This document shows positions 24,965-38,072 of a stretch of DNA of 64,000 nucleotides, one piece after another. A program made the position numbers and the translations under genes. Numbering within the stretch: the first letter of the stretch is position 1; every line of letters starts with the position of its first letter. Under the pieces are notes generated by a model. The model worked only from the letters and a program-made list of their open reading frames with translations. It searched no databases and was not told where the DNA came from. This stretch comes from an uncultured Acidimicrobiia bacterium (GTDB lineage: Bacteria; Actinomycetota; Acidimicrobiia; Acidimicrobiales; Ilumatobacteraceae), in the NCBI GenBank assembly GCA_963822315.1, contig CAWGHB010000010.1, forward strand, positions 88,377 to 152,376. Reading direction: 5' to 3'.

Positions 24965-25002
24965 GTGAGCCGAGCGAGTCCTCGAGCGAGCGAACGACAT
25001 GG
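24965..25002 (-). repeat. 38-nt interspersed repeat R1, copy b
   Basis: The reverse complement is CCATGTCGTTCGCTCGCTCGAGGACTCGCTCGGCTCAC. Its terminal GTG (24965) is in frame with the kinase ORF. Confidence 0.7.
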
Positions 25003-26693
25003 CGCGGTGAGCCGGCGCTGCGTGCCGGCCGACGTTGTAGCCTCCGGCGCGGTGTCCGCCGACCGCCTCGGACCGCGGAGCCTGCGCCAGCTCCTCGACG
25101 CCGTGCTCGCGATCGGCTCCAGCTTGGACCTCGACGACGCGCTGCAGCACATCGCCGAGACGGCGACGTCACTCGTCGATGCCCGGTACGGGGCGCTCGG
25201 CGTCCTCGACGAGTCCCGCCGCGGACTGGCCCGGTTCGTCACCGTCGGCATCGACGCCGACACGTATGCCGCGATCGGTCGGCTGCCCAAGGGGCAGGGA
25301 CTGCTCGGTCTCCTCATCCACGACGCCCGGCCGCTGCGGGTCGCGAGGATCGATCAGCACCCCGAGCGGGCGGGCTTCCCGCCCCACCACCCGCCGATGA
25401 CGTCGTTCCTCGGGGTGCCGATCATCAGCCGCGGCGAGGTCTTCGGCAACCTCTACCTGACCGACAAGATCTCGGCCGACGCCTTCACCGACCTCGACGA
25501 GCAGTTGGTGATGGGGCTGGCCGCGGCCGCCGGCATCGTGATCGACAACGCCCGGCTCTACGGCCGGGCGGTTCGTCGCGAGGCCGCGCTCGAGCGCGAT
25601 CCACGAGATGATCTCGGCCGTCACGACCGACGAGGTCGGGCATGGCGGGCTCCAACTGGTCGCCGACCGCGCCTGGGAGCTGGTCGGTGCCGACGTCGCG
25701 ACGGTCGCCCTCCCGTCCCCGGACGGCGAATCGCTGACGCTGAGCGTGGTCGCCGGCCCGGCGTCGACGGACCTCCGCGGGCAGGCGTTCCCGATCGCGT
25801 CGAGCGTGTCGGGTGAGGTGATCGCCACCGGTCGGCCGGTCGTGCTGGAGGATGCCGCCCACGACGAGCACGCCAGTCAGCCCCAGGTCAGCGCCGGCGT
25901 GATCGGCCCGGCGATCTGGGTGCCGTTGCGGGCGTCGGGGGACGTCGTCGGCACGCTGTCCGTGGCGCGGCGCAGCGGCGCCGAGCCGTTCTCGGAGGCC
26001 GAGCTCGAGCTCGTCCTCCTGTTCGCCGCCCAGGCCGGCGTCATCCTGGAGATCGACCGCAGCCGGGATGACGTCCGCCGCCTGTCGATCCTCGAGGACC
26101 AGGAGCGCATCGCCCGCGATCTCCACGACACCGTCATCCAGCGCCTCTTCGCGACCGGGCTCTCGCTGCAGGGGCTCACCCGCCTGACGTCGGAGCCGGT
26201 GTCAGGGCGTCTGGCCTCGGCGATCGACGATCTCGACGCGACGATCCGCCAGATCCGCACCGTGATCTTCGGGCTCGAGCGCCCGGTCGGGCGCGAGCTG
26301 AACGGCCTGCGGGGGCGGATCCTCGACCTCGCCGTCGAGGCGGCGCGGGTCCTCGGCTTCGACCCCCGGGTGACGTTCAGCGGACCGATCGACACCGTCG
26401 TCGACGTCGGGACGGCCGACGAGGTCGTCGCCGTCCTCCGCGAGGCGCTGTCGAACGTGAGCCGCCACGCGGCGGCGCGCGAGGTCGTCATCGATGCCGG
26501 CACGGACGGCGCGGCCTTCACGCTCACCGTCACCGACGATGGAGTCGGGCTCGGAGACGGGGGCGGTGCCTCGGGGCACGGCGTGGAGAACATGCTCGCC
26601 CGCGCGGCGCGGCGCGGCGGGACGGCCGAGATCGGCACTCGGCCGGAGGGGGGCGTCCGCGTGCGGTGGTCGGTGCCGCTCGGGCGGGTCTGA
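24965..26693 (+). pseudogene. DevS/DosS-like GAF-GAF-HisKA_3-HATPase sensor kinase, one frameshift; start uncertain (GTG 24965/25007/25052)
   Basis: GAF-A (SLVDARYGALGVLDE..FPPHHPPMTSFLGVPI..GNLYLTDK..NARLYGRAVRREAALE) lies in the frame of ORF 24893. It continues as AIHEMISAVTT..GAF-B..ERIARDLHDTVIQRLFATGLSLQ..GHGVENMLARAA in the frame of ORF 25608. The shift is near 25595. Confidence 0.75.
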
Positions 26694-26715
26694 GCGATCC
26701 GCGCCGGCCCGGCGC

Positions 26716-27759
26716 TCACGCCCGTGTGAGGACGACCTTCAGGGCGCCGGTCTCCCCGGCGCGGGCGAAGACGTCGTACGCCTCTTCGAACTGGTCGAGA
26801 CGGAAGTGGTGGGTCACGAACCGCGACGGGTCGAGCTGACCGCTCTGGGCCAACCGCAGCAGGGTGGGCGTGGAGGAGGTGTCGACGAGGCCGGTCGTGA
26901 TCGTGACGTTCTTGATCCAGAGGTCCTCGAGGTGCAGCGTCGCCGGCTCACCGTGCACGCCGATGTTCGCGACATGGCCACCGGGACGCACCAGCGCCGC
27001 CGCCAGTTCGAACGTCGCCGGGACGCCGACCGCCTCGATGGTCACGTCGGCGCCGAGCCCTCCGGTGAGGTCGCGCACGACGGCCAGCGGATCCTGGTCA
27101 CCGTTGTTGACGGTGACGTCGGCCCCGAACTGCTTGGCGGCGTCGAGCCGGCTGTCGACGAGGTCGATGGCGATCACATGGCTCGGGCTGAGGAGACGGG
27201 CGCCGGCGATCGCCGACAGGCCGATCGGTCCGGCGCCGACGACGGCGACGACGTCTCCCGGGCGGACCCGGCCGTTGAGGACGCCGACCTCATACCCGGT
27301 CGGCAGGATGTCGGCGGCCATCAGCAACTGGTCGTCGGTGACGCCGGCTGGCGCGAGGTAGGTGGAGGTGTCGGCGAACGGGACGCGAACCAGCTCGGCC
27401 TGGGTCCCGTCGATCAGGTGTCCGAGGATCCAGCCCCCGCCGCCCAAGCACTGCCCGAACATGGCCTCGCGGCAGTAGCGGCACGTGCCGCAGGCCGAGA
27501 TGCACGAGACGAGGACGTGGTCGCCGACGTGCCGGGCCCGCACGCCGGCGCCGACCTGCACGATCGTCCCGACGGCCTCGTGACCCAGCACCCGGCCGGG
27601 TGTCACCGTCGGCACGTCACCCTTGAGGATGTGGAGGTCGGTGCCGCAGATCGTCACCGCGTCCACGCGCACGATGGCATCGGTGTCGGCGACGAGCGAC
27701 GGCGCCGGCACCTCCTCCCACGACGCGTGGCCTGGTCCGTGGTACACGACAGCGTGCAT
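26716..27759 (-). CDS. zinc-dependent alcohol dehydrogenase (MDR family)
   Basis: MHAVVYHGPG..GHEAVGTIVQVG..CGTCRYCREAMFGQC..VAVVGAGPIGL. GGAGG precedes ATG 27759. The ORF is open up to GTG 27837, which sits at the leaderless position relative to box B1. Confidence 0.85.
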   Translation of the reverse strand: MHAVVYHGPGHASWEEVPAPSLVADTDAIVRVDAVTICGTDLHILKGDVPTVTPGRVLGHEAVGTIVQVGAGVRARHVGDHVLVSCISACGTCRYCREAMFGQCLGGGGWILGHLIDGTQAELVRVPFADTSTYLAPAGVTDDQLLMAADILPTGYEVGVLNGRVRPGDVVAVVGAGPIGLSAIAGARLLSPSHVIAIDLVDSRLDAAKQFGADVTVNNGDQDPLAVVRDLTGGLGADVTIEAVGVPATFELAAALVRPGGHVANIGVHGEPATLHLEDLWIKNVTITTGLVDTSSTPTLLRLAQSGQLDPSRFVTHHFRLDQFEEAYDVFARAGETGALKVVLTRA

Positions 27760-27872
27760 GGTCTGCCTCCTGGTCGATGTCGGCGGGTCGGAGGGCGGCG
27801 GGCGATCCGTGCTCGGGTCGCTCATCCGGGCCTCCACACGTCCATGATCCGCGTCGGAGCAGCGCCTCGACA

Positions 27873-27886
27873 GGGCCGAACGTCAC
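27873..27886 (-). promoter_or_regulatory. DosR-type operator B1
   Basis: Gene-strand sequence GTGACGTTCGGCCC followed by T. 36 nt from GTG 27837. -10 hexamer GATCAT at -12..-7. Confidence 0.65.
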
Positions 27887-27926
27887 GGTTCGGAGCGGGA
27901 CGTGGCGGAGGTCGCGACCACGGTGA

Positions 27927-28388
27927 TCACTCCGGCGACGCCCGCCGCACCGGCGGATCCCGGTGCTCGCCGGCGCCGGCCGCCACCCGGAACCGGCGAC
28001 CGCTCACCTCCACCGGTTCGATCCGCACCACGTGGCTCTTCGGTGCCGCCTGCCACGGGAACAGCGGCAGGTCCGATGCGTCGAAGCGCTCGTGGAGACC
28101 TCGGAGCTCCTGGGCCCGACCCTTGATGATGACGGACCAGGCCTCGCCGCGCGCCCGGTCGTGGCCGTCCACCTCGAACGCCACGTTGCCGTCGAGTCCG
28201 ACGGCGGTGAGCTTCGTGCCCGCCGCCGTGCGGAACACGACCGTGCCGTGGTCGACGACGTAGTTCACCGGGAAGATCTCCGGCTGGTCGGACAAGGCGA
28301 CGGCGAGGCGGCCGATCTCGGCCGTGCGCAGCAGCTCGAAGCACTCGTGGGTCGTGAGGACGGTCATGCCGAGACGGTCGGTGGTCAT
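27927..28388 (-). CDS. PPOX-like split-barrel protein (Pyridox_ox_2-type), paralog 1
   Basis: MTTDRLGMTVLTTHECFELLRTAEIGRLAVA..EIFPVNYVVDHGTVVFRTAAGTKL. Clearly paralogous to 36671..37117. Confidence 0.7.
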   Translation of the reverse strand: MTTDRLGMTVLTTHECFELLRTAEIGRLAVALSDQPEIFPVNYVVDHGTVVFRTAAGTKLTAVGLDGNVAFEVDGHDRARGEAWSVIIKGRAQELRGLHERFDASDLPLFPWQAAPKSHVVRIEPVEVSGRRFRVAAGAGEHRDPPVRRASPE

Positions 28389-28424
28389 GGGGCCATCGTG
28401 CGCCCGGTCGGCCGACGGTGGCGA

Positions 28425-28438
28425 GGGCCCAACGTCCC
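28425..28438 (-). promoter_or_regulatory. DosR-type operator B2
   Basis: Gene-strand sequence GGGACGTTGGGCCC then T. 37 nt from ATG 28388. -10 hexamer CACGAT at -12..-7. Confidence 0.65.
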
Positions 28439-28544
28439 GTTCCCGGCCCACCGCCCGTCGCCGCGGCGCGCCGACGTCCCACCCCGCACCGGCGACGGGA
28501 GCCGGGCGGGGTGGGACGGGTGGGGTCGGCGGGGCAGGCTTGGT

Positions 28545-29240
28545 TCAGGCGGTGCGATGACGGTGGACGAGCCCGAGCACCACGAGGACCCCCATCGCGC
28601 CGGCGGCGACGAAGCAGACGATGGCGGCGATGCCGGCGATCATCCCGATGGTGGACCACGCGTAGGTCGACAGCAGCAGACCGCGGAGCGTCTCGCCCCG
28701 GAACAGCGAATCACGCTGCCCGCTGATGGAGTCGGCAGTTGCCTGCAGCTCGTCGATGGTCGCCGGGGGCTCGCCGTTGTCGATGGCGTCCTGGACGGCG
28801 GCGGCCGCGGCCCGCTGGGGCTGCCCGAGGTCGGCATAGGTCGCCCCGTCGGCGATGCCCTCGAGGTGGCCGCCGATGTAGCTGGCGTAGGCCTCGGCCT
28901 CGCCACCCGTGGTGACCTGCTCGCCGGCGTAGCCGAGCAGGTCGGTGCGGCCCTCCTCCTCCAGGGAGGCGGCGTCGGGGAACGTGATGTTCTGCGAGGA
29001 CAGCTCGCGCCCGACGTAGTCGTCGGCGAACCGGTTGCCCCACGTGAGCAGGCCGCCGGCTACGACCAGCACGAGCGCCGCCACGCCGCCGAGGGCGACG
29101 AGGATCGCGTCGAGCCGACGGCGCCGGATCGGTCCGACGACGTCGACGTCGGCGGGGTCCGGCGGGCCGGCGGGCTCGGGCTCGGGGAGGTCGAGGTCGA
29201 CGACCGGCCGGTCGGGTGACGGGTGGTAGGTCTTGGTCAT
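28545..29240 (-). CDS. membrane protein, two TM segments flanking a ~130-aa extracytoplasmic domain (function unknown)
   Basis: 231-aa ORF. Hydrophobic stretches LDAILVALGGVAALVLVVAGGLL and WSTIGMIAGIAAIVCFVAAGAMGVLVVLGLV. No family recognised. Confidence 0.5.
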   Translation of the reverse strand: MTKTYHPSPDRPVVDLDLPEPEPAGPPDPADVDVVGPIRRRRLDAILVALGGVAALVLVVAGGLLTWGNRFADDYVGRELSSQNITFPDAASLEEEGRTDLLGYAGEQVTTGGEAEAYASYIGGHLEGIADGATYADLGQPQRAAAAAVQDAIDNGEPPATIDELQATADSISGQRDSLFRGETLRGLLLSTYAWSTIGMIAGIAAIVCFVAAGAMGVLVVLGLVHRHRTA

Positions 29241-29265
29241 GATGGGCTCCGATCAGGAGGGTGGT

Positions 29266-29347: not shown

Positions 29348-30190
29348 TCATGGGACGACGACGACGGGGCAGGTGGCGTGATGGCTGACCTGGTCGCTCA
29401 CGGAACCGAAGACGGCGCTGGCCAGCTCGCCGCGACCACGCGAGCCGACGACGAGGACCGAGCCGAGTGCCGCGGCCTCGAGCAGGGCGGCGGCCGGGCG
29501 GTCGCAGCTCGACACGATCTCGACGGGCGCGATCAGGCCGGAGGTGTCGACCGGCGCGAGCTCGCGACGCAGGAAGCGGTCGGACTCGGCGGCGAGTGCC
29601 GGCGGGTCGAACGCCGGGTCGTAGAGCCCCAACATGCTGTACGGCAGGAGCCACGCATGCACGGCGACCAGGCACCGGCCGGCGCTCCGCGCCTCCTCGA
29701 ACGCCCATCGCAGCGCACGCCGGGAAGGTTCGGACCCGTCCAGGCCGACGACGACGGGCTGATCGGCGCGCGTTGCGGCGTCACGGATCACGGCGACCGG
29801 GCAGGTGGCGTGGTGGAGGACCTGGCGACTGACCGAACCGAGCAGCAGACCACGGAATCCGCCGATGCCGCGAGCGCCGACCACGACGAGGTCGGCGCCG
29901 TCGCCGGCCTCGAGCAGCGCCCGGCCCGGGAGGTCGTTGACGACGACCCGCCGGACGGCGTCGTGGTCGGCGGTGGTCCGATCGACGAGGTCGTCGAGGA
30001 CCTTCGCGGCGACGGCCGCGCTGTAGTCCGGGTCGAACGGTGCGCCCGGCTCGGCGTGGTGCTGGTCGATGTAGCCCCACGCGAGGAGGGCCGTGACGGG
30101 CCGGTCGTGACGGGCGCCGTGATCGGCCGCCCACCGCAGCGCGGCGCGGGCGTAGGGGGACTCGTCGACGCCGACGATGATTCCTTCCAT
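29348..30190 (-). CDS. tandem universal stress protein (two UspA domains)
   Basis: MEGIIVGVDESPYARAALRWAA..LVVVGARGIGGFRGLLLGSVSRQVLHHATCPVAV then a second copy ..VVGLDGSEPSRRAL..VVGSRGRGELASAVFGSVSDQVSHHATCPVVVVP. Confidence 0.85.
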   Translation of the reverse strand: MEGIIVGVDESPYARAALRWAADHGARHDRPVTALLAWGYIDQHHAEPGAPFDPDYSAAVAAKVLDDLVDRTTADHDAVRRVVVNDLPGRALLEAGDGADLVVVGARGIGGFRGLLLGSVSRQVLHHATCPVAVIRDAATRADQPVVVGLDGSEPSRRALRWAFEEARSAGRCLVAVHAWLLPYSMLGLYDPAFDPPALAAESDRFLRRELAPVDTSGLIAPVEIVSSCDRPAAALLEAAALGSVLVVGSRGRGELASAVFGSVSDQVSHHATCPVVVVP

Positions 30191-30225
30191 GCCTCGAGCA
30201 TCGGTTCCGGACGGCCGATCCGGTA

Positions 30226-30239
30226 GGGCCGAAGGACCC
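30226..30239 (-). promoter_or_regulatory. DosR-type operator B3
   Basis: Gene-strand sequence GGGTCCTTCGGCCC then T. 36 nt from ATG 30190. -10 hexamer GATGCT at -12..-7. Confidence 0.6.
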
Positions 30240-30392
30240 GTCGCGCCCGTGACCACCTGGGTGCGGACCGTGCCATCCCGACATCCGGGCGCGGGCAGTC
30301 ACGAAATCGAGACCATCCGCGCCCAGGTGCGCCGATGAGGCTGATCGCGCCCAGATGGTGGGAGGCGCGCCGGGCGAGCGGGACCTGGAACA

Positions 30393-31058
30393 ATGATCGA
30401 GGTGAGCGAGCGCGTGAGGGTGTTCCTCCTCGACGACCACGAAGTGGTCCGCCGCGGCGTCCGCGATTTGCTGGAGGCCGAGCCGGACATGGTCGTGGTC
30501 GGCGAGGCCAGCACGGAGGACGAAGCGGTCCGGCGGATCCCCGCGGTCGACCCCGACGTGGCCGTGCTCGACGTCCGGCTGCAGGACGGTGACGGCATCA
30601 GCGCCTGCCGTGAGATCCGGTCCCGCCACCCGCGGACGGCCTGCCTGATGCTGACGTCGTTCGGCGACGACGAGGCGCTCTACCAGGCGATCATGGCCGG
30701 CGCCGCGGGGTACGTGCTCAAGCAGATCCGCTCCGGCGACCTCGTCGACGCGGTCAGGCGCGTCGCCGCCGGCGAGCAGTTGCTCGATCCCGCCCTCACG
30801 GCACGGGTGGTGGAGCGGCTCCGGCGGGGACCGGAGGAAGACGAGCTGATCGCCCGGCTCAGCCCTCAGGAGCACCAAGTGCTGACGTTGCTCGCCGACG
30901 GACTGACCAACCGTCAGATCGCCGAGCGCCTGTACCTGGCCGAGAAGACGATCAAGAACTACGTGACGTCGGTGCTGTCGAAGATGGGCATGGCGCGCCG
31001 GACCGAAGCCGCCGTCTACGCGGCACGGCACCTGGACCCGCGACGCGACCCGACGTGA
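30393..31058 (+). CDS. dosR: DosR/DevR-like NarL-family response regulator
   Basis: VRVFLLDDHEVVRRGVRDLL..DVAVLDVRLQDGDGI..LTSFGDDEAL..AGAAGYVLK..LSPQEHQVLTLLADGLTNRQIAERLYLAEKTIKNYVTSVLSKMGMARRTEAAV is collinear with M. tuberculosis DosR as I recall it. The recognition helix AEKTIKNYV compares with AEKTVKNYV. Confidence 0.85.
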   Translation: MIEVSERVRVFLLDDHEVVRRGVRDLLEAEPDMVVVGEASTEDEAVRRIPAVDPDVAVLDVRLQDGDGISACREIRSRHPRTACLMLTSFGDDEALYQAIMAGAAGYVLKQIRSGDLVDAVRRVAAGEQLLDPALTARVVERLRRGPEEDELIARLSPQEHQVLTLLADGLTNRQIAERLYLAEKTIKNYVTSVLSKMGMARRTEAAVYAARHLDPRRDPT

Positions 31059-32446: not shown

Positions 32447-32474
32447 ACGTCGCACGTCGCACGTCGCACGTCAG
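32447..32474. repeat. heptamer tandem repeat (ACGTCGC) x3 plus a partial copy
   Basis: ACGTCGC ACGTCGC ACGTCGC ACGTCAG seen directly. Lies between the CoA-transferase stop (32471) and the USP start (32413). Confidence 0.8.
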
Positions 32475-33742
32475 ACATAGCCCAGCTGCCGGGCGCAGTG
32501 ACGCAGGCGGTCCCGGTGGTCGGGGTGGGCGATCCCGATGAGCGCGTGCGCCCGCTCGCGGATCGAACGGCCGCGCAGCTCGGCGACCCCCCACTCGGTG
32601 ACCACCTTGTCGACCGTGTTCTTGAGCGTGGTGACGACGTCCCCCGGCGCCAGTGATGGTGTGATCTTGGAGACACCGCCGTCGGCGGTCGTCGCGTGGA
32701 GCACGACGAAGCCCTGGCCACCGTGCGAGTACAGCGCCCCGCGGGCGAAGTCGGCCTGGCCGCCGCTGGATGAGTAGTAGTGGCCCGCGATCGTCTCCGA
32801 CGCGCATTGTCCGAGCAGGTCGATGCTGAGCGTCGAGTTGATCGACACGAAGGACGGCTCGGTCCCGATCGTGCGAGGGTCGTTGACGTAGCTCACCGGC
32901 CACAGCTCGAGCGCCGTGTTGTCGTCGAGGAACCGGTGCAGGCGGTCGGTGCCCAGCGCGAACGTGCCCACGGCCTTGGTGCGGTTGAGGTGCTTGCGGA
33001 CGCCGGTGACGGCCCCGCACTCGATGAGGTCGACGATGCCGTCCGAGAGCAGCTCGGTGTGCACGCCCAGGTCGCGGTGCCCGGCCAGCGCCGACAGGAT
33101 GGCGTTCGGCGTGGCCCCGATGCCGATCTGGATCGTCGCGCCGTCCGGGATGCGCTCGGCGACGTGGGCGGCGATGCGGGCGTCGACGTCGTCGCTCGGC
33201 ACGGGTGGGACCTCGACGAGCGGGCGATCGACCTCCACCCAGCCTGCGACCTGCGACACGTGCAGCTGGTTGCGACCGAACGTGCGCGGCATCCGGGCGT
33301 TGGCTTCGAGGAAGAACCGCGCCCGGCCGATGAACGACGCGACGTAGTCGGCCGACACCCCGAGGCTGAAGTAGCCGTGGCGGTCGATCGGCGACGCCGC
33401 CGCGAGGACCAGCGGGTCCGTGGTCGTCGCGGTCAGGATGTCCCGCATCTCGGAGAAGTTGCCGGGCACGAGGTCGATGGTCCCGGCCGCGTAGCACGGT
33501 CGGGTGACATGGGACAGGAAGTAGGACCGGTGGCGGATGCGATCGCCGAACGCGCCGTGCAGGGATGGGCGGTCGTGGATGGCGTGCATCTGGTGGATCC
33601 GCAGCCCGTCGAAGTGTTCGGGATGCGCTTCGATGGCGTCGAGCAGGGAGACGGGCTCGCCGTTGGCGAGCGGCACGATGACGTCTCCGTCCCGATGGAC
33701 GTGGTCGAGCACCGCGTCGGGCAAGGTGGCGGGGCGGGGCAT
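32471..33742 (-). CDS. acetyl-CoA hydrolase/transferase family protein (4-hydroxybutyrate/acetate CoA-transferase-like)
   Basis: 423 codons from MPRPATLPDAVLDHV. IQIGIGATPNAILSAL, HTELLSDG, SSSGGQADFARGA (GGQxDF motif). Confidence 0.85.
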   Translation of the reverse strand: MPRPATLPDAVLDHVHRDGDVIVPLANGEPVSLLDAIEAHPEHFDGLRIHQMHAIHDRPSLHGAFGDRIRHRSYFLSHVTRPCYAAGTIDLVPGNFSEMRDILTATTTDPLVLAAASPIDRHGYFSLGVSADYVASFIGRARFFLEANARMPRTFGRNQLHVSQVAGWVEVDRPLVEVPPVPSDDVDARIAAHVAERIPDGATIQIGIGATPNAILSALAGHRDLGVHTELLSDGIVDLIECGAVTGVRKHLNRTKAVGTFALGTDRLHRFLDDNTALELWPVSYVNDPRTIGTEPSFVSINSTLSIDLLGQCASETIAGHYYSSSGGQADFARGALYSHGGQGFVVLHATTADGGVSKITPSLAPGDVVTTLKNTVDKVVTEWGVAELRGRSIRERAHALIGIAHPDHRDRLRHCARQLGYV

Positions 33743-33779
33743 CGGGCGACGGCTCCGGGAGCAGGTCGGGGGCGACCGG

Positions 33780-34655
33780 TCAGGCCGTCCGGAGGGATCC
33801 GGGCACGGTGACGTCGTGGAACGGACGGTGCGGTGCCGCGAGGGGCGCCGCCGGCTGGCGGGCGGTGAGCGGCACCGGCCGCGCCGGGACGACGAGCACC
33901 GGGTGAGCGGCGCGGTGGACGAGCTCCTGCGTGACGCTGTGCCAGTGCCAACGGCCGTCGGTGGCGCGGCCGCTGGTCGCCACGTAGACGGACCCGGTGA
34001 ACCGGTCGGCCAGCGCTTCGAGCCCGGCGACGGTGTCATCGTGGTGCACGAGGTGCGTCGAAACCGGCACGCCGTGGTCGGCCAGGAGCGAGGCCATCGC
34101 GGCGAGCCGACGATCGGCCGCGGCGTCGTCGCCGGCGGCCACGACCTCCGCGAGCTGCGGCACCGTGCCCCGGAACGTCGCCTGCCAGGAGACGATGGTC
34201 GGCACCGAGCGGTCGGCGGCCTCGCCGGCGTCGATGCATGGCACGAGCGTGCTCCCCGGCGGGAACGAGGTGGGGACGTTCGGGCCGATCAGCAGGACCG
34301 GCTGGTCGGTCGTGCGCAGCACGTCCCTCGTCACGCCACCGAAGAAGCTCGACCGGATCGGGGAACGAGCCGACGTCGCCATCAGGAGCAGCGAGTCCGG
34401 GCGACTGGCGGCGTGGTGCACCAGCGCACGGGCCGCGTCGACGTCGTGGACGATGCACCACGCGTCGCTCGTCGAGGCGAACTGCCGGGCCCGACGCTCG
34501 AGCTCCCAACGATCGACGTCATTCGGCAAGCCGGGCTCACAGATCGTGACCAGCTCGACGGTGGCGTTGCCGGTGCTGGCCAGCGCCCGGGCGATCGGCA
34601 ACGCGCGATCGTTGTCCGGCGCGAGGTCCAGCGCCACCACGAGCGTCGTGAACAT
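33780..34655 (-). CDS. tandem universal stress protein
   Basis: MFTTLVVALDLAPDNDRAL preceded by GGAGGA. ..LLLMATSARSPIRSSFFGGVTRDVLRTTDQPVLLIGP, with a second domain ending HSVTQELVHRAAHPVLVVP. Confidence 0.8.
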   Translation of the reverse strand: MFTTLVVALDLAPDNDRALPIARALASTGNATVELVTICEPGLPNDVDRWELERRARQFASTSDAWCIVHDVDAARALVHHAASRPDSLLLMATSARSPIRSSFFGGVTRDVLRTTDQPVLLIGPNVPTSFPPGSTLVPCIDAGEAADRSVPTIVSWQATFRGTVPQLAEVVAAGDDAAADRRLAAMASLLADHGVPVSTHLVHHDDTVAGLEALADRFTGSVYVATSGRATDGRWHWHSVTQELVHRAAHPVLVVPARPVPLTARQPAAPLAAPHRPFHDVTVPGSLRTA

Positions 34656-34715
34656 GGGTTCCTCCGATCGGTCTCGCACACGTCCATGGTGACCCCTCGG
34701 GCCCCGGTTTGGACA

Positions 34716-34729
34716 GGGCCCAACGTCAC
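34716..34729 (-). promoter_or_regulatory. DosR-type operator B4
   Basis: Gene-strand sequence GTGACGTTGGGCCC then T. 61 nt from ATG 34655. -10 hexamer CACCAT 25 nt downstream of the box. Predicted ~24-nt leader with SD. Confidence 0.6.
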
Positions 34730-34754
34730 TCGCCGTCTCGTCCATCGCGGAGGC

Positions 34755-34768
34755 GTGACGTTCGGCCC
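34755..34768 (+). promoter_or_regulatory. DosR-type operator B5
   Basis: GTGACGTTCGGCCC then T. -10 hexamer GACAGT at 34792-34797. Predicted TSS about 34804, followed by GAGGAGG and ATG 34823. Confidence 0.6.
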
Positions 34769-34822
34769 TACAGTCGGCGTGACGGCAGGCCGACAGTGGG
34801 AGTGGACGAGGAGGTACGACGC

Positions 34823-35279
34823 ATGGTGCAACACGACGTCCACGTGCTCGTGGTCTATGAATCGATGTTCGGGAACACGGAGGCCGTCGCCCGGAGCATC
34901 GGCTCTGCTGCGGCGGGCCGTGGCTGCCGGGTCGACGTCGTCGACGTCGGCAGCGCGCCGAGCCACGTCGGTGACGTGCAGCGAGTGGCTGGCCGAGCTC
35001 GCCCGGCCCGAGCGTCCGGTGGTCGCCGCCTGCTTCGACACCCGGATCCGAACGCGGCTGCTCGTCGGTTCGGCGGCGCGGGCCATCAGGCGGCGACTGC
35101 GCCGGCTCGGGTTCGGCGTCGTCGACGTGCGGCGTTTCACCGTCACCGCGACGCCCGGCCCGCTGGCCGACGACGAGCTGCAGCACGCCCAGCGATCGGC
35201 CTCGGCGCTGGTCGACCGCTGTGTCGGCACGACGCCGAGCGCGTCGCCATCAGGCCCGGCCGATGAGCACCGCGTCTGA
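34823..35279 (+). pseudogene. flavodoxin-like protein with out-of-frame internal deletion
   Basis: MVQHDVHVLVVYESMFGNTEAVARSI..VDVGSAPSHVGDV (frame of ORF 34709) jumps at about 34975 to SEWLAELARPERPVVAACFDTRIRTRLLVGSAARAIRRRLRRLGF (frame of ORF 33537..35279). The ~45 residues normally between them (DLLVVGxPTHAFG.. block) are missing. Confidence 0.6.
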
Positions 35280-35778
35280 GCCGAGCCCCAACGTTCCCTC
35301 GCTCGAGGGCTCGCTCGACCCACCCAGCCCACCGGGCTCCGGCGATCGCTCCGAGCCACGTCGTTCGCTCGCTCGAGGATCCGCTCGGCTCCCGTTGGCC
35401 GTCGGTGTCGATCTCTCCCCGGAGTCGGCCGCCGCACTCTCGTACGCGCTCCTGCTGGCCAGCCAGCTGGATCGTCCGGTCGTGGTCGTGCACGCCGTCG
35501 GGCTCCTGGAGGAGGCCGGCGTCCGCCCGCCGCCGGTCCTCGATGCGATCATCGACTCGGCGCGCGCCCGCTCCGGCGCGTTCGACGTCGACGTCAACAT
35601 CGTCGTCGAGGACGGGCCGCCGGCGGCGGTGATCGAGCGGGTGGCCGACCGATCGGGGGCCGAGCTGGTGGTCGTCGGGCGGCGCGGGCTCGGCGACGCG
35701 CCGCAGCCGTTGGGGTCGGTCAGCGAACTGCTGCTGGCGCGGAGCCGGGTCCCGGTCGTCGTGGTGCCGAGCGCCTGA
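35263..35778 (+). CDS. universal stress protein (single domain); start uncertain
   Basis: LAVGVDLSPESAAALSYAL..VVVVHAV..LVVVGRRGLGDAPQPLGSVSELLLARSRVPVVVVP. ATG 35263 would translate two R1 repeat copies. TTG 35395, just after them, is an alternative start. Confidence 0.7.
   Translation: MSTASEPSPNVPSLEGSLDPPSPPGSGDRSEPRRSLARGSARLPLAVGVDLSPESAAALSYALLLASQLDRPVVVVHAVGLLEEAGVRPPPVLDAIIDSARARSGAFDVDVNIVVEDGPPAAVIERVADRSGAELVVVGRRGLGDAPQPLGSVSELLLARSRVPVVVVPSA
35288..35323 (+). repeat. interspersed repeat R1, copy d (diverged)
   Basis: CCAACGTTCCCTCGCTCGAGGGCTCGCTCGACCCAC. Confidence 0.55.
35356..35393 (+). repeat. interspersed repeat R1, copy c
   Basis: CCACGTCGTTCGCTCGCTCGAGGATCCGCTCGGCTCCC. 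In tandem with copy d. Confidence 0.7.
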
Positions 35779-35785
35779 GATCATC

Positions 35786-35799
35786 GGGACGTTCGGCCC
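35786..35799 (+). promoter_or_regulatory. DosR-type operator B6
   Basis: GGGACGTTCGGCCC. Exactly 36 nt from ATG 35835. -10 hexamer CACAGT at 35823-35828. Confidence 0.65.
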
Positions 35800-35834
35800 G
35801 TGCGGCGGGGACGGGGCGGGCGCACAGTCGAGGC

Positions 35835-36143
35835 ATGGAGCACACCTCGCAACCTGATGCCGTCGCCATCCGTGGCGACGATGACCCACTGGCGATGTGG
35901 GGCGCGATCGTCCGCTCGCTACGCCACGTGATCCTGTACGCCGACATCGAGGAGCTCGACCGGTTCGAGCCGATCCGGGACGAAGCCGACCTGGACGCCG
36001 ACGACTTCGTACGTCTCATGCTGGCGGTCGGCGGCGAGACCGGGATCGCCATCCCCGAGGCCGACTACCCCCTCGTCGCCACGCTCGCCGCGCTGGAGGA
36101 CTACCTCAACGACCACGTCCCCGGCACCCTCGACCGGACCTGA
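35835..36143 (+). CDS. acyl-carrier-protein-like small protein lacking the phosphopantetheine serine
   Basis: 102 aa. EPIRDEADLDADDFVRLMLAVGGETGIAIPEADYPLVATLAALEDYL aligns with the ACP pattern ..DLG(L/A)DSL..VEL...E..FGI.IP..D....T...L..Y., with DDF in place of DSL. Confidence 0.5.
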   Translation: MEHTSQPDAVAIRGDDDPLAMWGAIVRSLRHVILYADIEELDRFEPIRDEADLDADDFVRLMLAVGGETGIAIPEADYPLVATLAALEDYLNDHVPGTLDRT

Positions 36144-36203
36144 CGAGCGGCTCCGTCCGTCGGCACTCGCCGGCGGGCGGAGCCCGGACCGCGACCGGGC
36201 CGG

Positions 36204-36671
36204 CTACAGGTAGCCGCCGACCGGGTGTGTCGGGGCGTCGACCGCACCGCGCAGCAGGCGACCGGTGATCGCCTCGACCGGCACGATCATCCATCGGTCC
36301 CGCGGCCCCGGTGCCCACGAGGCGACCTCGACCGTGTCGGCGCCCGCCGGCATCGGCAGCAGCCGTCCGTGGACGACGACGCTCCAGCCGGACCGAGTGC
36401 GCTGGTCGAACATGTCGACTTCGAACATCACGGGCTGCGGAACCGGACCGTCGGCGCGGCTCCCCGCCTGGGTGCGGAACGTGACGATCCCGTCGACGGC
36501 TGTGTAGTTGACCGGCACGATCGCCGGATCGTCGCCGCCGATGACGAGCCGGCCGACGTGCTGCGTGCCCAGCAGGGCGACGCACGTGGAGCGGTCCAGC
36601 GCGAACAGCTCGGCCGGACGCTCCGGTTCGGCGCCGGGCCACGCTGTTCGCTCGATCGAGGTCCCGCTCAT
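36204..36671 (-). CDS. PPOX-like split-barrel protein, paralog 2
   Basis: MSGTSIERTAW..LDRSTCVALLGTQHVGRLVIGGDDPAIVPVNYTAVDGIVTFRTQAGSRA. The ATG shares its A with the upstream TGA (TGATG). The first ~11 codons are encoded by repeat R1 copy e. Confidence 0.7.
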   Translation of the reverse strand: MSGTSIERTAWPGAEPERPAELFALDRSTCVALLGTQHVGRLVIGGDDPAIVPVNYTAVDGIVTFRTQAGSRADGPVPQPVMFEVDMFDQRTRSGWSVVVHGRLLPMPAGADTVEVASWAPGPRDRWMIVPVEAITGRLLRGAVDAPTHPVGGYL

Positions 36672-36672
36672 C
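36639..36672 (+). repeat. interspersed repeat R1, copy e
   Basis: CCACGCTGTTCGCTCGATCGAGGTCCCGCTCATC. Spans the stop/start junction of two PPOX-like genes. Confidence 0.6.
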
Positions 36673-37117
36673 AGACGGTCCGGACAGGATCGGCCCAGAC
36701 CGAGGGCGCAACGACGTCGAAGCTGCGGCCGGTGATCTCGACCGGCTCGATCCGGACGAACCGGTGCTTGGGGCTGGCGTGCCATGGGAACAGCGGCAGA
36801 TCGAGCGCGTCGAGCAGGTCGTCCATGCGCTCGATCTCGACCGCATGGCCCTTCACGACGACGCTCCACGCCGAGTTCCCCGCCGGGTCGAGCCCGTCGA
36901 CCTCGAATGCCACGCCGCGACCGAGCACGGCCGCCGCCAGCTTCGTGCCCTCCGCGGTGCGGAACACGATGCCGCCGCGATCGACGACGTAGTTGAGGGG
37001 GAAGATGTCCGGGTGCTCACGGATCGAGACGGCGAGCCGACCGACGGTCTGCCCGCGCAGGAGCTCGATGCAGGACTCGGTGTCGAGCACCGTGGTGCCG
37101 AGGTGATCGGTGGTCAT
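36671..37117 (-). CDS. PPOX-like split-barrel protein, paralog 3
   Basis: MTTDHLGTTVLDTESCIELLRGQTVGRLAVSIREHPDIFPLNYVVDRGGIVFRTAEGTKL. The ATG overlaps the upstream stop as ATGA. Confidence 0.75.
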   Translation of the reverse strand: MTTDHLGTTVLDTESCIELLRGQTVGRLAVSIREHPDIFPLNYVVDRGGIVFRTAEGTKLAAAVLGRGVAFEVDGLDPAGNSAWSVVVKGHAVEIERMDDLLDALDLPLFPWHASPKHRFVRIEPVEITGRSFDVVAPSVWADPVRTV

Positions 37118-37533
37118 GCCTCAACCATCCGCTTCGGACGGGCCGGCCGCCAGGGCCGAAGGTCCCCGACCGCCTGACGCCCGTGCACGTCGTCCGTGGT
37201 GAGCCGGACGACGGTGCGGTCGGGGTCGGGGAGGCGGGCCCACGGTCGTGGGTGGCTGGCGACGCCCCGCACGGTGACCGTCCACGCCGGCCGCCCGTCG
37301 ACGGCGGGACCCTCGGCCTCGAACGCCACGACGGTGTCGTCCGTGCCGGCGTGGACGTCCGAGCCCGGCCTCGTCTCGATCACGATGCGGTCGTCGTCGT
37401 CGACGTGGAAGTGGACGGGCACGATGGCCGGTCGGTCGTCGACCGGGACGATGACCCGCCCGACGTGGACGTCGCGCAGCGCTCGCAGGCACTCGGCTCG
37501 GGTCAGGACACGCAGGGCCTCATCGGTGGTCAC
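37114..37533 (-). CDS. PPOX-like split-barrel protein, paralog 4
   Basis: GTG start. MTTDEALRVLTRAECLRALRDVHVGRVIVPVDDRPAIVPVHFHVDDDDRIVIETRPGSDV. Confidence 0.7.
   Translation of the reverse strand: MTTDEALRVLTRAECLRALRDVHVGRVIVPVDDRPAIVPVHFHVDDDDRIVIETRPGSDVHAGTDDTVVAFEAEGPAVDGRPAWTVTVRGVASHPRPWARLPDPDRTVVRLTTDDVHGRQAVGDLRPWRPARPKRMVEA
37153..37166 (-). promoter_or_regulatory. DosR-type operator B7 (inside the 3' end of the upstream coding region)
   Basis: Gene-strand sequence GGGACCTTCGGCCC then T. 36 nt from ATG 37117. -10 hexamer GATGGT at -12..-7. Lies within CDS 37114..37533. Confidence 0.6.
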
Positions 37534-37568
37534 ACCTCGATGGTCGCGGGCGACGTCCGACGCAGCAA

Positions 37569-37582
37569 GGGCCCAACGTCCC
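37569..37582 (-). promoter_or_regulatory. DosR-type operator B8
   Basis: Gene-strand sequence GGGACGTTGGGCCC then T. 36 nt from GTG 37533. -10 hexamer GACCAT at -12..-7. Confidence 0.65.
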
Positions 37583-37608
37583 TGGTTCGGCGCGCCCGCC
37601 GGTCGACC

Positions 37609-37622
37609 GGGACCAATGACCC
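37609..37622 (+). promoter_or_regulatory. DosR-type operator B9 (most divergent copy)
   Basis: GGGACCAATGACCC then T. 37 nt from GTG 37659. -10 hexamer CACGCT at 37647-37652. Confidence 0.5.
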
Positions 37623-37658
37623 TGGCGCGGCCGCTCCGCCCGGCCGCACGCTGGTGCG

Positions 37659-38072
37659 GTGCTCGTCGACAGCGGACTGGAGCTCCTGACCGAGGCCGAG
37701 GCCTGGCGGCTGCTGCGCGGCGCCGAGATCGGTCGGGTGGGCATCACGATCGGCGCGCTGCCGGCGATCTTCCCGGTGAACTACCGGATCGTCGACGGGG
37801 CCATCGTCTTCCGCACCGCACCGGGTTCGAAGATGTCGGCCGCATCGGCGCACGCCGTCGTCGCGTTCGAGGTCGACGACTACGGGCCGGCCGACCGCTC
37901 GGGCTGGAGCGTCCTCGTCGTCGGCCGCAGCGAGGTCGTGGAAGACCCCGACCTGGCATCGGCGCTGCGCCGGTCGCGCCTCGAGCCGTTCGCCGACGGC
38001 GACCGCACGGCGATCGTGCGCATCGACCCGGTGTTCGTGTCCGGTCGGCGCCTCGTGCACCGTCCGACGTGA
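37659..38072 (+). CDS. PPOX-like split-barrel protein, paralog 5
   Basis: GTG start. LVDSGLELLTEAEAWRLLRGAEIGRVGITIGALPAIFPVNYRIVDGAIVFRTAPGSKM. Confidence 0.7.
   Translation: MLVDSGLELLTEAEAWRLLRGAEIGRVGITIGALPAIFPVNYRIVDGAIVFRTAPGSKMSAASAHAVVAFEVDDYGPADRSGWSVLVVGRSEVVEDPDLASALRRSRLEPFADGDRTAIVRIDPVFVSGRRLVHRPT

What the first reader, a model, noticed from the sequence alone, without database searches (positions are those of the whole stretch)
24965..38072. A strictly oriented 15-nt operator (GKGACSTTSGGCCCT) marks 11 promoters and defines a DosR-type dormancy island
Read on the strand of the downstream gene, eleven sites share one asymmetric motif:
- GTGACGTTCGGCCC: 27873 (rc), 34755, 49688, 50253
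- GGGACGTTCGGCCC: 35786
- GGGACGTTGGGCCC: 28425 (rc), 37569 (rc)
- GTGACGTTGGGCCC: 34716 (rc)
- GGGACCTTCGGCCC: 37153 (rc)
- GGGTCCTTCGGCCC: 30226 (rc)
- GGGACCAATGACCC: 37609

Ten of the eleven are followed by T. All point toward the gene they precede. None was noticed elsewhere in intergenic DNA, apart from the degenerate look-alikes listed under rejected.

The motif has the GGGAC-N4-GNCCC architecture of the M. tuberculosis DosR box, recalled as TTSGGGACTWWAGTCCCSAA. The island also encodes a regulator whose recognition helix (AEKTIKNYV) is almost identical to that of DosR.

The genes downstream of the boxes are:
- an alcohol dehydrogenase
- five PPOX-like proteins
- tandem USPs, one of them heading an operon with a CoA-transferase, a further USP and a Pat-type GNAT
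- a flavodoxin with a USP
- an ACP-like protein
- 12 kb away, a CBS-pair protein and an ABC transporter

This gene content matches the mycobacterial and streptomycete hypoxia regulons in kind. The operator variant, its strict orientation and the member list appear specific to this lineage.
Basis: partly seen in the sequence, partly recalled or inferred. Interest (0 to 1): 0.8.

Follow-up and report, generated by a model that had tools for sequence, protein, structure and literature searches.

The report
DosR-type hypoxia regulon promoter boxes
The repeated 14-15 base motif is real and is most likely the binding site of a DosR/DevR-type oxygen-stress regulator encoded in the same island, so this is an ordinary actinobacterial dormancy regulon seen in a little-studied lineage (probably Acidimicrobiia), not a new kind of system.

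Summary
GKGACSTTSGGCCC occurs 9 times exactly (0.01 expected). With two degenerate copies and a twelfth site I found at 49504(-), it marks 12 promoters, and every box points at its gene.

Each of the 11 listed boxes is followed 23-24 nt later by an nAnnnT -10 hexamer. At 8 promoters a start codon lies 35-36 nt after the box (7 of them also 6-7 nt after a -10 hexamer), which implies leaderless mRNAs. The box therefore spans about -49 to -36, centred at -42.5. That is where the primary Dev box sits at M. tuberculosis tgs1.

The island encodes a DevR orthologue (55% identity; D54, K179, K182 and N183 kept). It also encodes a DevS/DosT-type kinase with two GAF domains that keeps the haem His and the distal Tyr.

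All boxes keep the G5 and C7 positions that DevR needs. GGGACCTTCGGCCC is also a predicted OsdR site in Streptomyces coelicolor. Relatives carry the same box, polarity, spacing and gene set.

So the DosR reading holds, but the claim of lineage specificity does not. Differences from M. tuberculosis: no detectable second box, no box before the regulator, fixed polarity. Many genes in the window are frame-broken. Nothing was tested experimentally.

The parts
25052..26693 (+). DevS/DosT-type sensor kinase (GAF-A, GAF-B, HisKA_3, HATPase_c), read in two frames with a break near 25560
   Evidence: Pfam finds a GAF domain in frame A (24893-25816) and GAF+HisKA_3+HATPase_c in frame B (25608-26693). 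GAF-A is 57% identical to DevS GAF-A (2y8h, E 4e-47). The haem ligand His149 and distal Tyr171 are conserved, with Gly at position 87 as in DosT (PMC4082495). The ATPase domain's best solved match is DosT/DevS. The frame switch is placed at 25560/25561. The start near 25052 is inferred from the alignment.
30393..31058 (+). DevR/DosR-type response regulator (receiver domain + LuxR/GerE helix-turn-helix)
   Evidence: Pfam gives Response_reg + GerE. Best PDB match is DevR 3c3w at 228 bits; the next, VraR, scores 156 bits. Identity is 55% over 205 ungapped residues. Equivalents of D54, D8/D9, T82, K104, K179, K182 and N183 are conserved. No box lies directly upstream.
27873..27886 (-). Box GTGACGTTCGGCCC(T), promoter of Zn-alcohol dehydrogenase 26716-27759
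   Evidence: Exact match. -10 hexamer GATCAT at 27844-27849, 23 nt after the box. The true start is ATG 27759 behind AGGAGG, giving a leader of about 78 nt. Pfam gives ADH_N/ADH_zinc_N. ADH orthologues in L003 and L009 keep a degenerate box and -10 at the same place.
28425..28438 (-). Box GGGACGTTGGGCCC(T), promoter of PPOX-like gene 27927-28388
   Evidence: Exact match. -10 hexamer CACGAT at 28395-28400. ATG 6 nt after the -10 and 36 nt after the box, so leaderless. Pyridox_ox_2, E 1e-29.
30226..30239 (-). Box GGGTCCTTCGGCCC(T), promoter of tandem-USP gene 29348-30190, probably co-transcribed with membrane protein 28545-29240
   Evidence: One mismatch, PWM score 20. -10 hexamer GATGCT at 30197-30202. 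ATG 35 nt after the box. Usp x2, E 2e-50. Co-transcription with the membrane protein is inferred from strand and spacing only. That protein recurs next to DevR orthologues in L001, L009, L010, L014 and L021.
34716..34729 (-). Box GTGACGTTGGGCCC(T), promoter of the operon tandem-USP 33780-34655, CoA-transferase 32471-33742, USP 31601-32413, Pat-like GNAT 31095-31604
   Evidence: Exact match. -10 hexamer CACCAT at 34686-34691. ATG 34655 behind GGAGG. Pfam and NCBIfam give Usp, AcetylCoA_hyd_C/butyryl-CoA:acetate CoA-transferase-like, Usp, and a GNAT matching the catalytic part of mycobacterial Pat. The operon is inferred from same-strand genes that abut or overlap.
34755..34768 (+). Box GTGACGTTCGGCCC(T), promoter of a flavodoxin-like gene (34823-35279, frame-broken near 34980) and USP 35395-35778
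   Evidence: Exact match. -10 hexamer GACAGT at 34792-34797. ATG 34823 behind GAGGAGG. The Flavodoxin_1 N-terminal match is sub-threshold, E 4e-5. Usp, E 3e-18. It lies back to back with box 34716, start to start 39 nt.
35786..35799 (+). Box GGGACGTTCGGCCC(G), promoter of a 102-aa protein of unknown family, 35835-36143
   Evidence: Exact match. -10 hexamer CACAGT at 35823-35828. ATG 35 nt after the box, so leaderless. No Pfam or NCBIfam family, so the 'ACP-like' label is not supported.
37153..37166 (-). Box GGGACCTTCGGCCC(T), promoter of PPOX-like genes 36671-37117 and 36204-36671 (1-nt stop/start overlap); the box lies inside the 3' end of PPOX gene 37114-37533
   Evidence: Exact match. -10 hexamer GATGGT at 37124-37129. 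ATG 35 nt after the box. Pyridox_ox_2, E 2e-29 and 1e-14.
37569..37582 (-). Box GGGACGTTGGGCCC(T), promoter of PPOX-like gene 37114-37533
   Evidence: Exact match. -10 hexamer GACCAT at 37540-37545. GTG 35 nt after the box. Pyridox_ox_2, E 6e-14.
37609..37622 (+). Degenerate box GGGACCAATGACCC(T), promoter of PPOX-like gene 37659-38072
   Evidence: Weak by sequence (leave-one-out score 1.4), but it keeps G5/C7 in both halves. -10 hexamer CACGCT at 37647-37652 and GTG 36 nt after the box. It lies 40 nt from box 37569, back to back. Pyridox_ox_2, E 6e-29.
49504..49517 (-).
   Evidence: PWM score 19.5, intergenic. GTG 36 nt after the box, in frame with ORF 48811-49548. No strict nAnnnT hexamer; TAGAT lies at the expected place. 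A 34%-identical homologue lies next to the DevR orthologue in L002. No Pfam or NCBIfam family.
49688..49701 (+). Box GTGACGTTCGGCCC(T), promoter of a CBS-pair gene 49738-50158 (frame-broken near 49932)
   Evidence: Exact match. -10 hexamer CACGCT at 49725-49730. ATG 49738 is 7 nt after the -10. The first CBS domain is in the frame of 49738 and the second in the frame of 49751.
50253..50266 (+). Box GTGACGTTCGGCCC(T), promoter of ABC transporter ATPase 50314-51107 (frame-broken near 50520) and permease 51196-51852
   Evidence: Exact match. -10 hexamer CAGGTT at 50291-50296. GTG 50314 behind AGGAGG. ABC_tran profile positions 1-66 and 65-136 fall in two frames. ABC2_membrane_3 for the permease.

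Best explanation
The motif is most likely the DNA site of the DevR/DosR-type response regulator encoded at 30393-31058, and it acts as an activator site rather than a repressor operator.

Inferred chain of events:
1. The adjacent DevS/DosT-type kinase binds a gas ligand (O2, NO or CO) through haem in its first GAF domain.
2. When O2 falls, or NO or CO binds, the kinase phosphorylates the regulator on the Asp equivalent to D54.
3. A regulator dimer binds the imperfect inverted repeat G(G/T)GAC-N4-GGCCC.
4. Each box sits at about -49 to -36 (centre -42.5), directly abutting the -35 position. The bound dimer probably recruits RNA polymerase to promoters that have weak -10 hexamers, (C/G)AnnnT, and no recognisable -35 (a class II arrangement).
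5. Eight of the twelve transcripts would start at the start codon (leaderless). Four have Shine-Dalgarno leaders.

The genes switched on are universal stress proteins, five PPOX-like flavin/F420-type proteins, a Zn-alcohol dehydrogenase, a CoA-transferase with a Pat-like acetyltransferase, a flavodoxin-like protein, a CBS-pair protein, an ABC exporter and two proteins of unknown family.

What is shown here is limited to the sequence features, their spacing and their conservation in relatives. Binding, the signal, the transcription start sites and activation are all inferred from the M. tuberculosis and Streptomyces systems.
For: 1. The motif is far above chance and confined to promoters: 9 exact matches against 0.01 expected, and 12 strong PWM hits against about 1.
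2. The geometry is fixed. All 11 listed boxes have nAnnnT 23-24 nt downstream (null 0.057 per site). Eight have a start codon 35-36 nt after the box, and in the seven of these that have a -10 hexamer it lies 6-7 nt after it. Flanks and spacers are not conserved.
3. The inferred centre, -42.5, equals the mapped position of the primary Dev box at M. tuberculosis tgs1. DevR promoters characteristically have the proximal box overlapping -35 (PMC3177182; PMC3029386).
4. The sequence matches 11 of 14 core positions of GGGACTWWAGTCCC (consensus confirmed). Its right half, GGCCCT, equals the OsdR consensus AGGGCCGATCGGCCCT. GGGACCTTCGGCCC is itself a predicted OsdR site.
5. All 12 boxes keep G5 and C7 in both halves, the positions essential for DevR binding.
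6. The regulator is closest to DevR, with the base-contacting K179, K182 and N183 conserved. The kinase keeps the haem His and distal Tyr.
7. Phylogenetic footprint: relatives from Acidimicrobiia to Streptomyces have the box at the same distance before PPOX, ADH, membrane-protein and regulator genes, within the same neighbourhood.
Against: - There is no experimental datum for this organism. Transcription start sites, binding and the inducing signal are all inferred.
- The kinase reads in two frames (break near 25560). If the break is real, the signalling input would be lost.
- No box precedes the regulator or the kinase, unlike M. tuberculosis, S. coelicolor and several relatives.
- No second tandem box is detectable at -63.5. 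In M. tuberculosis at least two boxes are the rule, although the secondary boxes there are poorly conserved and were found only by footprinting.
- Five boxes carry T at the second G. The matching G-to-T change halved OsdR binding in vitro.
- Only 64 kb of the genome could be scanned.
Confidence: 0.85

Rival explanations
1. The boxes are bound by a different regulator. Candidates are another NarL/LuxR-type response regulator, such as the one in the fused kinase-regulator ORF at 18496-19854, or an unrelated redox regulator. On this reading the DevR orthologue lies among the target genes by coincidence.
For: A second HisKA_3 kinase and LuxR-type regulator is in the window. A box-like sequence, GTGACCTACGGCCC, lies just before its receiver domain at 19150. 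No box lies before the DevR-type regulator itself.
Against: The box matches the experimentally defined DevR/OsdR site, including its essential positions. The DevR orthologue keeps the three base-contacting residues. Boxes track DevR orthologues and the same target genes across many genomes. The 19150 copy lacks the -10 hexamer and the spacing.
Confidence: 0.07
2. The motif is a promoter element read directly by an alternative (for example ECF-type) sigma factor, that is an extended -35 element, rather than a transcription-factor site.
For: It has a fixed distance to a -10-like hexamer and strict co-orientation with transcription. The T at the predicted -35 position is conserved.
Against: The conserved blocks lie too far from the -10 hexamer for a -35 element. 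GGCCC ends 23-24 nt upstream of it and G(G/T)GAC ends 32-33 nt upstream, against the usual 16-19 nt. The motif is an imperfect inverted repeat of the DevR type, and fully palindromic versions occupy the same place in relatives. No sigma-factor gene was found among the island genes annotated.
Confidence: 0.03
3. The copies are relics of duplicated promoter-gene modules or of a small dispersed repeat. Their similarity and common orientation would then reflect common descent, not selection for binding.
For: Several targets are paralogues (five PPOX, several USP genes). Some promoters share extra bases: CATGGACGTGTG in the ADH and USP promoters, and cGAGGc before four start codons.
Against: Similarity stops at the box, the T and the -10 hexamer. 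Spacers and flanks are unrelated. Non-homologous genes (ADH, CBS, ABC, flavodoxin-like, unknowns) carry the box. Orthologous promoters in distant genomes keep box and spacing while everything else has diverged.
Confidence: 0.03

Closest known systems
DevR/DosR-DevS/DosT dormancy regulon of Mycobacterium tuberculosis (Dev boxes)
   Same: - Response regulator 55% identical, with the phospho-Asp and base-contacting Lys/Lys/Asn conserved.
- Haem-GAF kinase with the same domain order and the same haem ligands.
- Box of the type GGGAC-N4-GNCCC that keeps the essential G5/C7.
- Box centred at -42.5, next to or overlapping -35.
- Targets include USPs and a CBS-pair protein. Rv2626c is a DevR promoter; that it is a CBS protein is my own knowledge.
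   Different: - The right half is GGCCC, not GTCCC, and the centre is STTS, not TWWA.
- There is one detectable box per promoter, where M. tuberculosis has two to four in tandem.
- No box lies before the regulator.
- Most transcripts are predicted to be leaderless.
- No hspX, nitroreductase, narK2 or nrdZ homologues were identified among the window genes annotated.
OsdK/OsdR (SCO0203/SCO0204) regulon of Streptomyces coelicolor
   Same: - About 65% identity to Streptomyces orthologues of the regulator.
- The OsdR consensus AGGGCCGATCGGCCCT shares the GGCCCT half.
- GGGACCTTCGGCCC is itself listed at narG2 (-53), SCO0167 and SCO5979.
- Targets include USPs, a Zn-dehydrogenase and a PPOX gene with the box at -50.
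- Streptomyces loci fetched here show a box 35-37 nt before a leaderless PPOX gene next to the regulator.
   Different: - The Streptomyces consensus is symmetric (GGGCC/GGCCC, or GGGGC/GCCCC at the PPOX gene). Here the distal half is G(G/T)GAC.
- osdR is autoregulated by its own box, which is not seen here.
- Nitrate reductase and developmental targets are not seen in this window.
Class II activator-dependent promoters (site centred near -41.5/-42.5, for example CRP/FNR or NarL-family activators)
   Same: The site abuts the -35 position, the -10 hexamer is weak and there is no recognisable -35 hexamer, all at a fixed distance. This comparison rests on general knowledge of promoter classes.
   Different: Classic class II sites are functionally symmetric. 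Here the polarity is fixed: variable G(G/T)GAC distal, near-invariant GGCCC-T proximal.

Membership tests
DevR/DosR-type two-component regulon | NarL/LuxR-family response regulator orthologous to DevR, with the phospho-acceptor Asp54 and DNA-contacting Lys179, Lys182 and Asn183 | tested here: met
   Best PDB match is DevR 3c3w (E 8e-67; next family member 72 bits lower). Identity is 55%, ungapped. All named residues are conserved. Residue roles are from PMC4082495.
DevR/DosR-type two-component regulon | Cognate haem-binding GAF-GAF-HisKA_3-HATPase sensor kinase (DevS/DosT) with the proximal His and distal Tyr | tested here: met
   Domain order confirmed. GAF-A is 57% identical to DevS. His149 and Tyr171 equivalents are present, with Gly87 as in DosT. 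Caveat: the gene reads in two frames, with a break near 25560.
DevR/DosR-type two-component regulon | Binding box of the GGGAC-N4-GTCCC type, with G5 and C7 of each half-site present | tested here: met
   All 12 boxes have G5/C7 in both halves (requirement from PMC3177182). 11 of 14 core positions match the published consensus. The exact variant is listed as an OsdR site.
DevR/DosR-type two-component regulon | Promoter-proximal box overlapping or abutting the -35 region (about -42.5) | tested here: met
   The box ends 23-24 nt before the nAnnnT hexamer and 35-36 nt before leaderless start codons, which puts it at -49 to -36. Start sites are inferred, not mapped.
DevR/DosR-type two-component regulon | Two or more tandem boxes in helical phase at every promoter (the M. 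tuberculosis hallmark) | tested here: inconclusive
   No second box is detectable 21 bp upstream. The G5/C7 score at that offset is below background. The only paired boxes are back to back in divergent promoters, 39-40 nt apart. However, M. tuberculosis secondary boxes are poorly conserved and were found only by footprinting, so sequence alone cannot exclude them.
DevR/DosR-type two-component regulon | Autoregulation: a box before the regulator operon | tested here: not met
   No box with at least 7 of 8 core matches lies in 30240-30392 or before the kinase. The nearest box, 30226, points away and ends 153 nt from the start codon. Relatives L004, L010, L012, L017, L033 and L042 do have one 35 nt before the regulator.
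DevR/DosR-type two-component regulon | Regulon enriched in universal stress proteins and redox or stress proteins clustered around the regulator | tested here: met
   Four USP genes, two of them tandem-domain (tandem-USP), plus five PPOX-like genes, ADH, CBS and a flavodoxin-like gene. The same neighbourhood is found in relatives. It parallels the S. coelicolor list.
DevR/DosR-type two-component regulon | Binding of the phosphorylated regulator to the boxes, and induction by hypoxia, NO or CO | not testable with these tools
   This needs EMSA, DAP-seq or ChIP-seq, and RNA-seq on the organism or a heterologous host.

The most novel reading that the evidence does not exclude
DevR-type boxes at -42.5 may be intrinsically directional across Actinomycetota, not palindromic as they are usually drawn.

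- The distal half is G(G/T)GAC and is variable.
- The proximal half is a near-invariant GGCCC followed by T at the predicted -35 position.
- The mirror arrangement is never seen in leaderless-geometry promoters: 0 against 10 in other genomes, and all 12 in this window have the one polarity.

In this lineage a single such box might suffice to drive leaderless transcripts. The GGGAC and GTGAC distal halves might form two affinity tiers; the GTGAC boxes go with leadered genes (4 of 5).
Probability: 0.3. Interest if true: 0.45.

Novelty: new member of a known kind. Interest (0 to 1): 0.3.

Why it matters
This extends a well-studied oxygen and NO stress regulon to what appears to be an Acidimicrobiia genome. 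That assignment is inferred from the best matches, where the closest relatives are uncultured Acidimicrobiia at 78-80%.

The searchable literature held no paper mentioning both DosR and Acidimicrobiia. A broader search with DevR, DevS, DosS and DosT showed none among its top-ranked papers.

The kinase, the regulator, the box at -42.5 and a USP/PPOX/ADH core all recur from this class to Streptomyces and mycobacteria. This is consistent with an old, shared actinobacterial module.

The practical value is a clean 12-promoter training set with fixed geometry. It can be used to annotate such regulons in metagenome-assembled genomes. There is also a modest mechanistic lead, the fixed polarity of the box, which could be tested in tractable Streptomyces or mycobacterial systems.

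It does not open a new class of mechanism.

Tried and rejected
- **Sigma-factor -35 element.** Rejected on spacing: the conserved blocks end 23-24 and 32-33 nt from the -10 hexamer.
- **Dispersed repeat or duplicated promoter.** Rejected because flanks and spacers are unrelated and orthologous promoters keep only the box.
- **Second tandem box at -63.5.** Searched for and not detectable.
- **Box before the regulator or kinase.** None found.
- **Look-alikes at 19150, 21174 and 34273.** They lie inside genes and have no -10 hexamer, so I treated them as chance.
- **Relaxed architecture scan of the whole window.** It gave 21 hits against about 11 expected. The excess is the known sites.
- **Source of the window.** An exact-protein look-up of the regulator found no record.
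- **My first gene-based orientation count in relatives.** Too noisy because of crude start calls. I replaced it with a geometry-based count.
- **A permissive box pattern.** It produced mostly noise in 70% GC DNA.
- **Three early Pfam queries in the wrong frame** (flavodoxin 34824, PPOX 36204-36669, CBS 49751). These gave false negatives and were redone.
- **Two papers not held.** Gerasimova et al. 2011 on mycobacterial dormancy regulons, and Daigle et al. 2015 on the S. coelicolor DosR-like regulon. Prior descriptions of polarity or wider taxonomic range may exist there.

Full report
**Observation.** Dinucleotide shuffles give 0.01 on average, and none of 100 reached nine.

The two further listed sites are a one-mismatch copy at 30226(-) and a degenerate copy at 37609(+). 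Ten of the eleven are followed by T.

A weight matrix built from the eleven sites finds 12 hits scoring at least 14, against about one in shuffled sequence. The other sub-threshold look-alikes (19150, 21174, 34273) lie inside genes.

**Anatomy of the promoters.** When the promoters are aligned on the box, nothing outside it is conserved except three things: the following T, a hexamer about two helical turns downstream, and the start region.

- All eleven listed boxes have an nAnnnT hexamer starting 23 or 24 nt after the 14-mer: GATCAT, CACGAT, GATGCT, CACCAT, GACAGT, CACAGT, GATGGT, GACCAT, CACGCT, CACGCT, CAGGTT. The chance of this is about 0.057 per site.
- At seven of them the start codon follows that hexamer by 6-7 nt, which puts it 35-36 nt after the box. 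The twelfth site also has a GTG at +36.
- These eight genes are therefore predicted to be leaderless.
- Four genes have Shine-Dalgarno leaders: ADH, the USP operon, the flavodoxin-like gene and the ABC transporter. The ADH starts at ATG 27759 behind AGGAGG.
- With the -10 hexamer at -12 to -7, the box spans -49 to -36 (centre -42.5), and the conserved T falls at -35.
- The three genic look-alikes lack the hexamer.
- In the two divergent intergenic regions each gene has its own box, back to back, 39-40 nt apart start to start.
- No degenerate second box is detectable 21 bp upstream of any site.

**The genes.** Pfam and NCBIfam confirm the following:
- five Pyridox_ox_2 proteins;
- two tandem-USP and two single-USP proteins;
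- a Zn-alcohol dehydrogenase;
- an acetyl-CoA hydrolase/transferase-family CoA-transferase;
- a GNAT that matches the catalytic part of mycobacterial Pat;
- a CBS-pair protein;
- an ABC ATPase and permease.

The 'flavodoxin' rests on a sub-threshold N-terminal match. The 'ACP-like' 102-residue protein and the protein behind the twelfth box have no family.

The stretch between the island and the outlying sites (39.9-48.7 kb) encodes ordinary oxidoreductases and has no boxes.

**The regulator and kinase.** The protein at 30393-31058 has a receiver domain and a LuxR-type helix-turn-helix.
- Its best solved relative is M. tuberculosis DevR (E 8e-67, 228 bits). The next family member scores 156 bits.
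- The alignment is ungapped over 205 residues at 55% identity.
- It keeps the equivalents of Asp54, Lys179, Lys182 and Asn183. These are the phospho-acceptor and the three residues that contact bases (PMC4082495).

Upstream lies a kinase with GAF-GAF-HisKA_3-HATPase architecture.
- Its first GAF domain is 57% identical to the haem domain of DevS (E 4e-47).
- It keeps the haem ligand His149 and the distal Tyr171, with Gly at position 87 as in DosT.
- The gene reads in two frames, with a break near 25560.

**Comparison of the box with known sites.**
- In M. tuberculosis, G5 and C7 of each half-site are essential.
- The primary box of tgs1 is centred at -42.5 with a secondary box at -63.5.
- Overlap of the proximal box with -35 is a common feature (PMC3177182; PMC3029386).
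- All twelve boxes here keep G5 and C7 in both halves. The positions that vary (G/T at the second G; A against C at the fourth base) are the non-essential ones.
- The Streptomyces OsdR consensus is AGGGCCGATCGGCCCT.
- The table of predicted OsdR sites includes GGGACCTTCGGCCC at narG2 (-53), SCO0167 and SCO5979. It also includes a PPOX gene with its box at -50 (PMC5069765).

The motif is therefore a blend of the two published consensus sequences. It is not a lineage-specific variant.

**Related genomes.** A scan of one genome per species with the regulator returned 80 loci. The closest are uncultured Acidimicrobiia (78-80% identity), then Desertimonas flava and Iamiaceae (69%), then Streptomyces (about 65%).
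- No locus was identical to the window, and the exact protein is not on record. The taxonomic assignment is therefore an inference.
- The same genes surround the regulator in these genomes: haem kinase, PPOX, ADH, CoA-transferase, USPs, the membrane protein, the GNAT, and a homologue of the hypothetical protein behind the twelfth box.
- Orthologous promoters keep the box, the hexamer and the 35-37 nt spacing, while everything else has diverged.
- In dozens of Streptomyces loci, a box 35-37 nt before a leaderless PPOX gene lies just beside the regulator.
- Several relatives have a box 35 nt before the regulator itself. The window and its closest relatives do not.

**Orientation.** All twelve boxes in the window have G(G/T)GNC (GAC in eleven, GTC at 30226) distal and GNCNC proximal (GGCCC in ten; GACCC at 37609, GGCTC at 49504) (two-sided binomial p about 0.0005).
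- Some targets are paralogues, but their promoters share nothing beyond the functional elements.
- Among promoters with the leaderless geometry in the other loci, the GGGAC...GGCCC arrangement occurs ten times. Its mirror, GGGCC...GTCCC, never occurs.
- The T after the box is far better conserved than the matching base on the distal side.
- Polarity is therefore real, but it is shared across lineages.
- The simplest explanation, which is an inference, is that the proximal half and the T are constrained jointly by the regulator and by the polymerase at the -35 position.

**Mechanism and rivals.** The best explanation is a DevS/DevR-type hypoxia, NO or CO switch. The phosphorylated regulator binds a single box at -42.5 and activates weak, mostly leaderless promoters (confidence 0.85).
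- A different regulator cannot be excluded without binding data. It is unlikely given the match to the DevR site and the co-occurrence across genomes.
- A sigma-factor -35 element is excluded by spacing.
- A dispersed repeat is excluded by the lack of flank similarity.

**Differences from the M. tuberculosis paradigm.**
- No second box is detectable. Secondary boxes there are cryptic and were found only by footprinting, so this point stays open.
- There is no autoregulatory box.
- The right half is GGCCC.
- Leaderless starts are prevalent.

**Caveats.**
- Frame breaks affect the kinase, the flavodoxin-like gene, the CBS gene and the ABC ATPase.
- They also affect unrelated genes, such as an NhaA-like antiporter at 16.4-17.7 kb.
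- This points to an error-prone assembly or to general gene decay, not to decay of the regulon in particular.
- Only 64 kb could be scanned.
- All functional statements are inferred from homology.

**Verdict.** This is a new member of a known kind, and interest is about 0.3. The fixed polarity of the box is the only mildly novel lead.

Noticed in passing
window 25560; 34980; 49932; 50520; 16400-18500; 18496-19854: There are many frame disruptions. The DevS-like kinase, the flavodoxin-like gene (which also seems to lack a central segment), the CBS-pair gene and the ABC ATPase each read in two frames. An NhaA-like antiporter (about 16.4-17.7 kb) and a protease-like gene (about 17.7-18.5 kb) are broken many times. 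A HisKA_3 kinase and a LuxR-type regulator are fused in one ORF. The breaks are not at obvious homopolymers. They suggest an error-prone assembly or widespread pseudogenes, not decay of the regulon in particular.
   Followed up: partly
It has a GTG at the leaderless distance (+36), in front of a 218-aa protein with no Pfam or NCBIfam family. A 34%-identical homologue lies beside the DevR orthologue in L002.
   Followed up: partly
window, all 12 boxes: The five boxes with GTGAC as the distal half precede the four leadered genes (ADH, USP operon, flavodoxin-like, ABC) plus CBS. The seven with GGGAC or GGGTC all precede leaderless genes (post hoc Fisher p about 0.01). The association does not hold in relatives: L007 has GTGAC with a leaderless gene, and L009 has GGGAC with a leadered ADH.
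   Followed up: partly
window 37153-37166 inside gene 37114-37533 (-): The box and -10 hexamer of one PPOX gene (36671-37117) lie inside the 3' coding end of the upstream PPOX gene. The next PPOX gene (36204-36671) overlaps its predecessor by one base (TGATG), so the three tandem PPOX genes have two internal arrangements.
   Followed up: no
window 27838-27849 and 34680-34691; 30191-30196, 35829-35834, 37118-37123, 37534-37539: There is extra shared sequence beyond the box. CATGGACGTGTG spans the -10 hexamer and predicted start in the ADH and USP-operon promoters. (c/t)GAGG(c/t) fills the six bases between the -10 hexamer and the start codon in four leaderless promoters.
   Followed up: no
window 30240-30392 and 24927-25051; L004, L010, L012, L017, L033, L042: There is no box in front of the regulator or the kinase here, nor in the closest relatives (L001-L003, L005-L007). 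More distant relatives have a near-palindromic box (for example GGGACCAAGGTCCC) 35 nt before a leaderless regulator gene. Autoregulation therefore seems to have been lost or moved in this clade.
   Followed up: partly
window 31095-32413 (-): A USP-domain protein (31601-32413) overlaps by 4 nt a 169-aa GNAT. The GNAT matches only the catalytic half of mycobacterial Pat and lacks the cyclic-nucleotide domain. Both lie downstream of a CoA-transferase in a box-driven operon. This could be an acetylation module under hypoxia control.
   Followed up: no
L018-L078, about 10680-10840 in each (Streptomyces loci): Beside the osdR orthologue in dozens of Streptomyces species there is a box of the form GGGGC-N4-GCCCC-T. 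It lies 35-37 nt before the start codon of a PPOX-like gene (MSTDEIRAIELL...). This is the same leaderless geometry as in the window.
   Followed up: partly
window 61791-61804: CGGACTTTCGTCCC is close to the canonical M. tuberculosis box. It lies in the intergenic region between a LigB-type dioxygenase gene (61833-62699, -) and an FAD-binding protein gene (61054-61701, -), 89 nt from the start of the latter.
   Followed up: no
window 38211-39950 (+): Directly after the island there is a TetR-family regulator and a di-iron AurF/R2-like ligand-binding-oxidase-like protein, in DNA of lower G+C (66-69% from about 39 to 52 kb).
   Followed up: no
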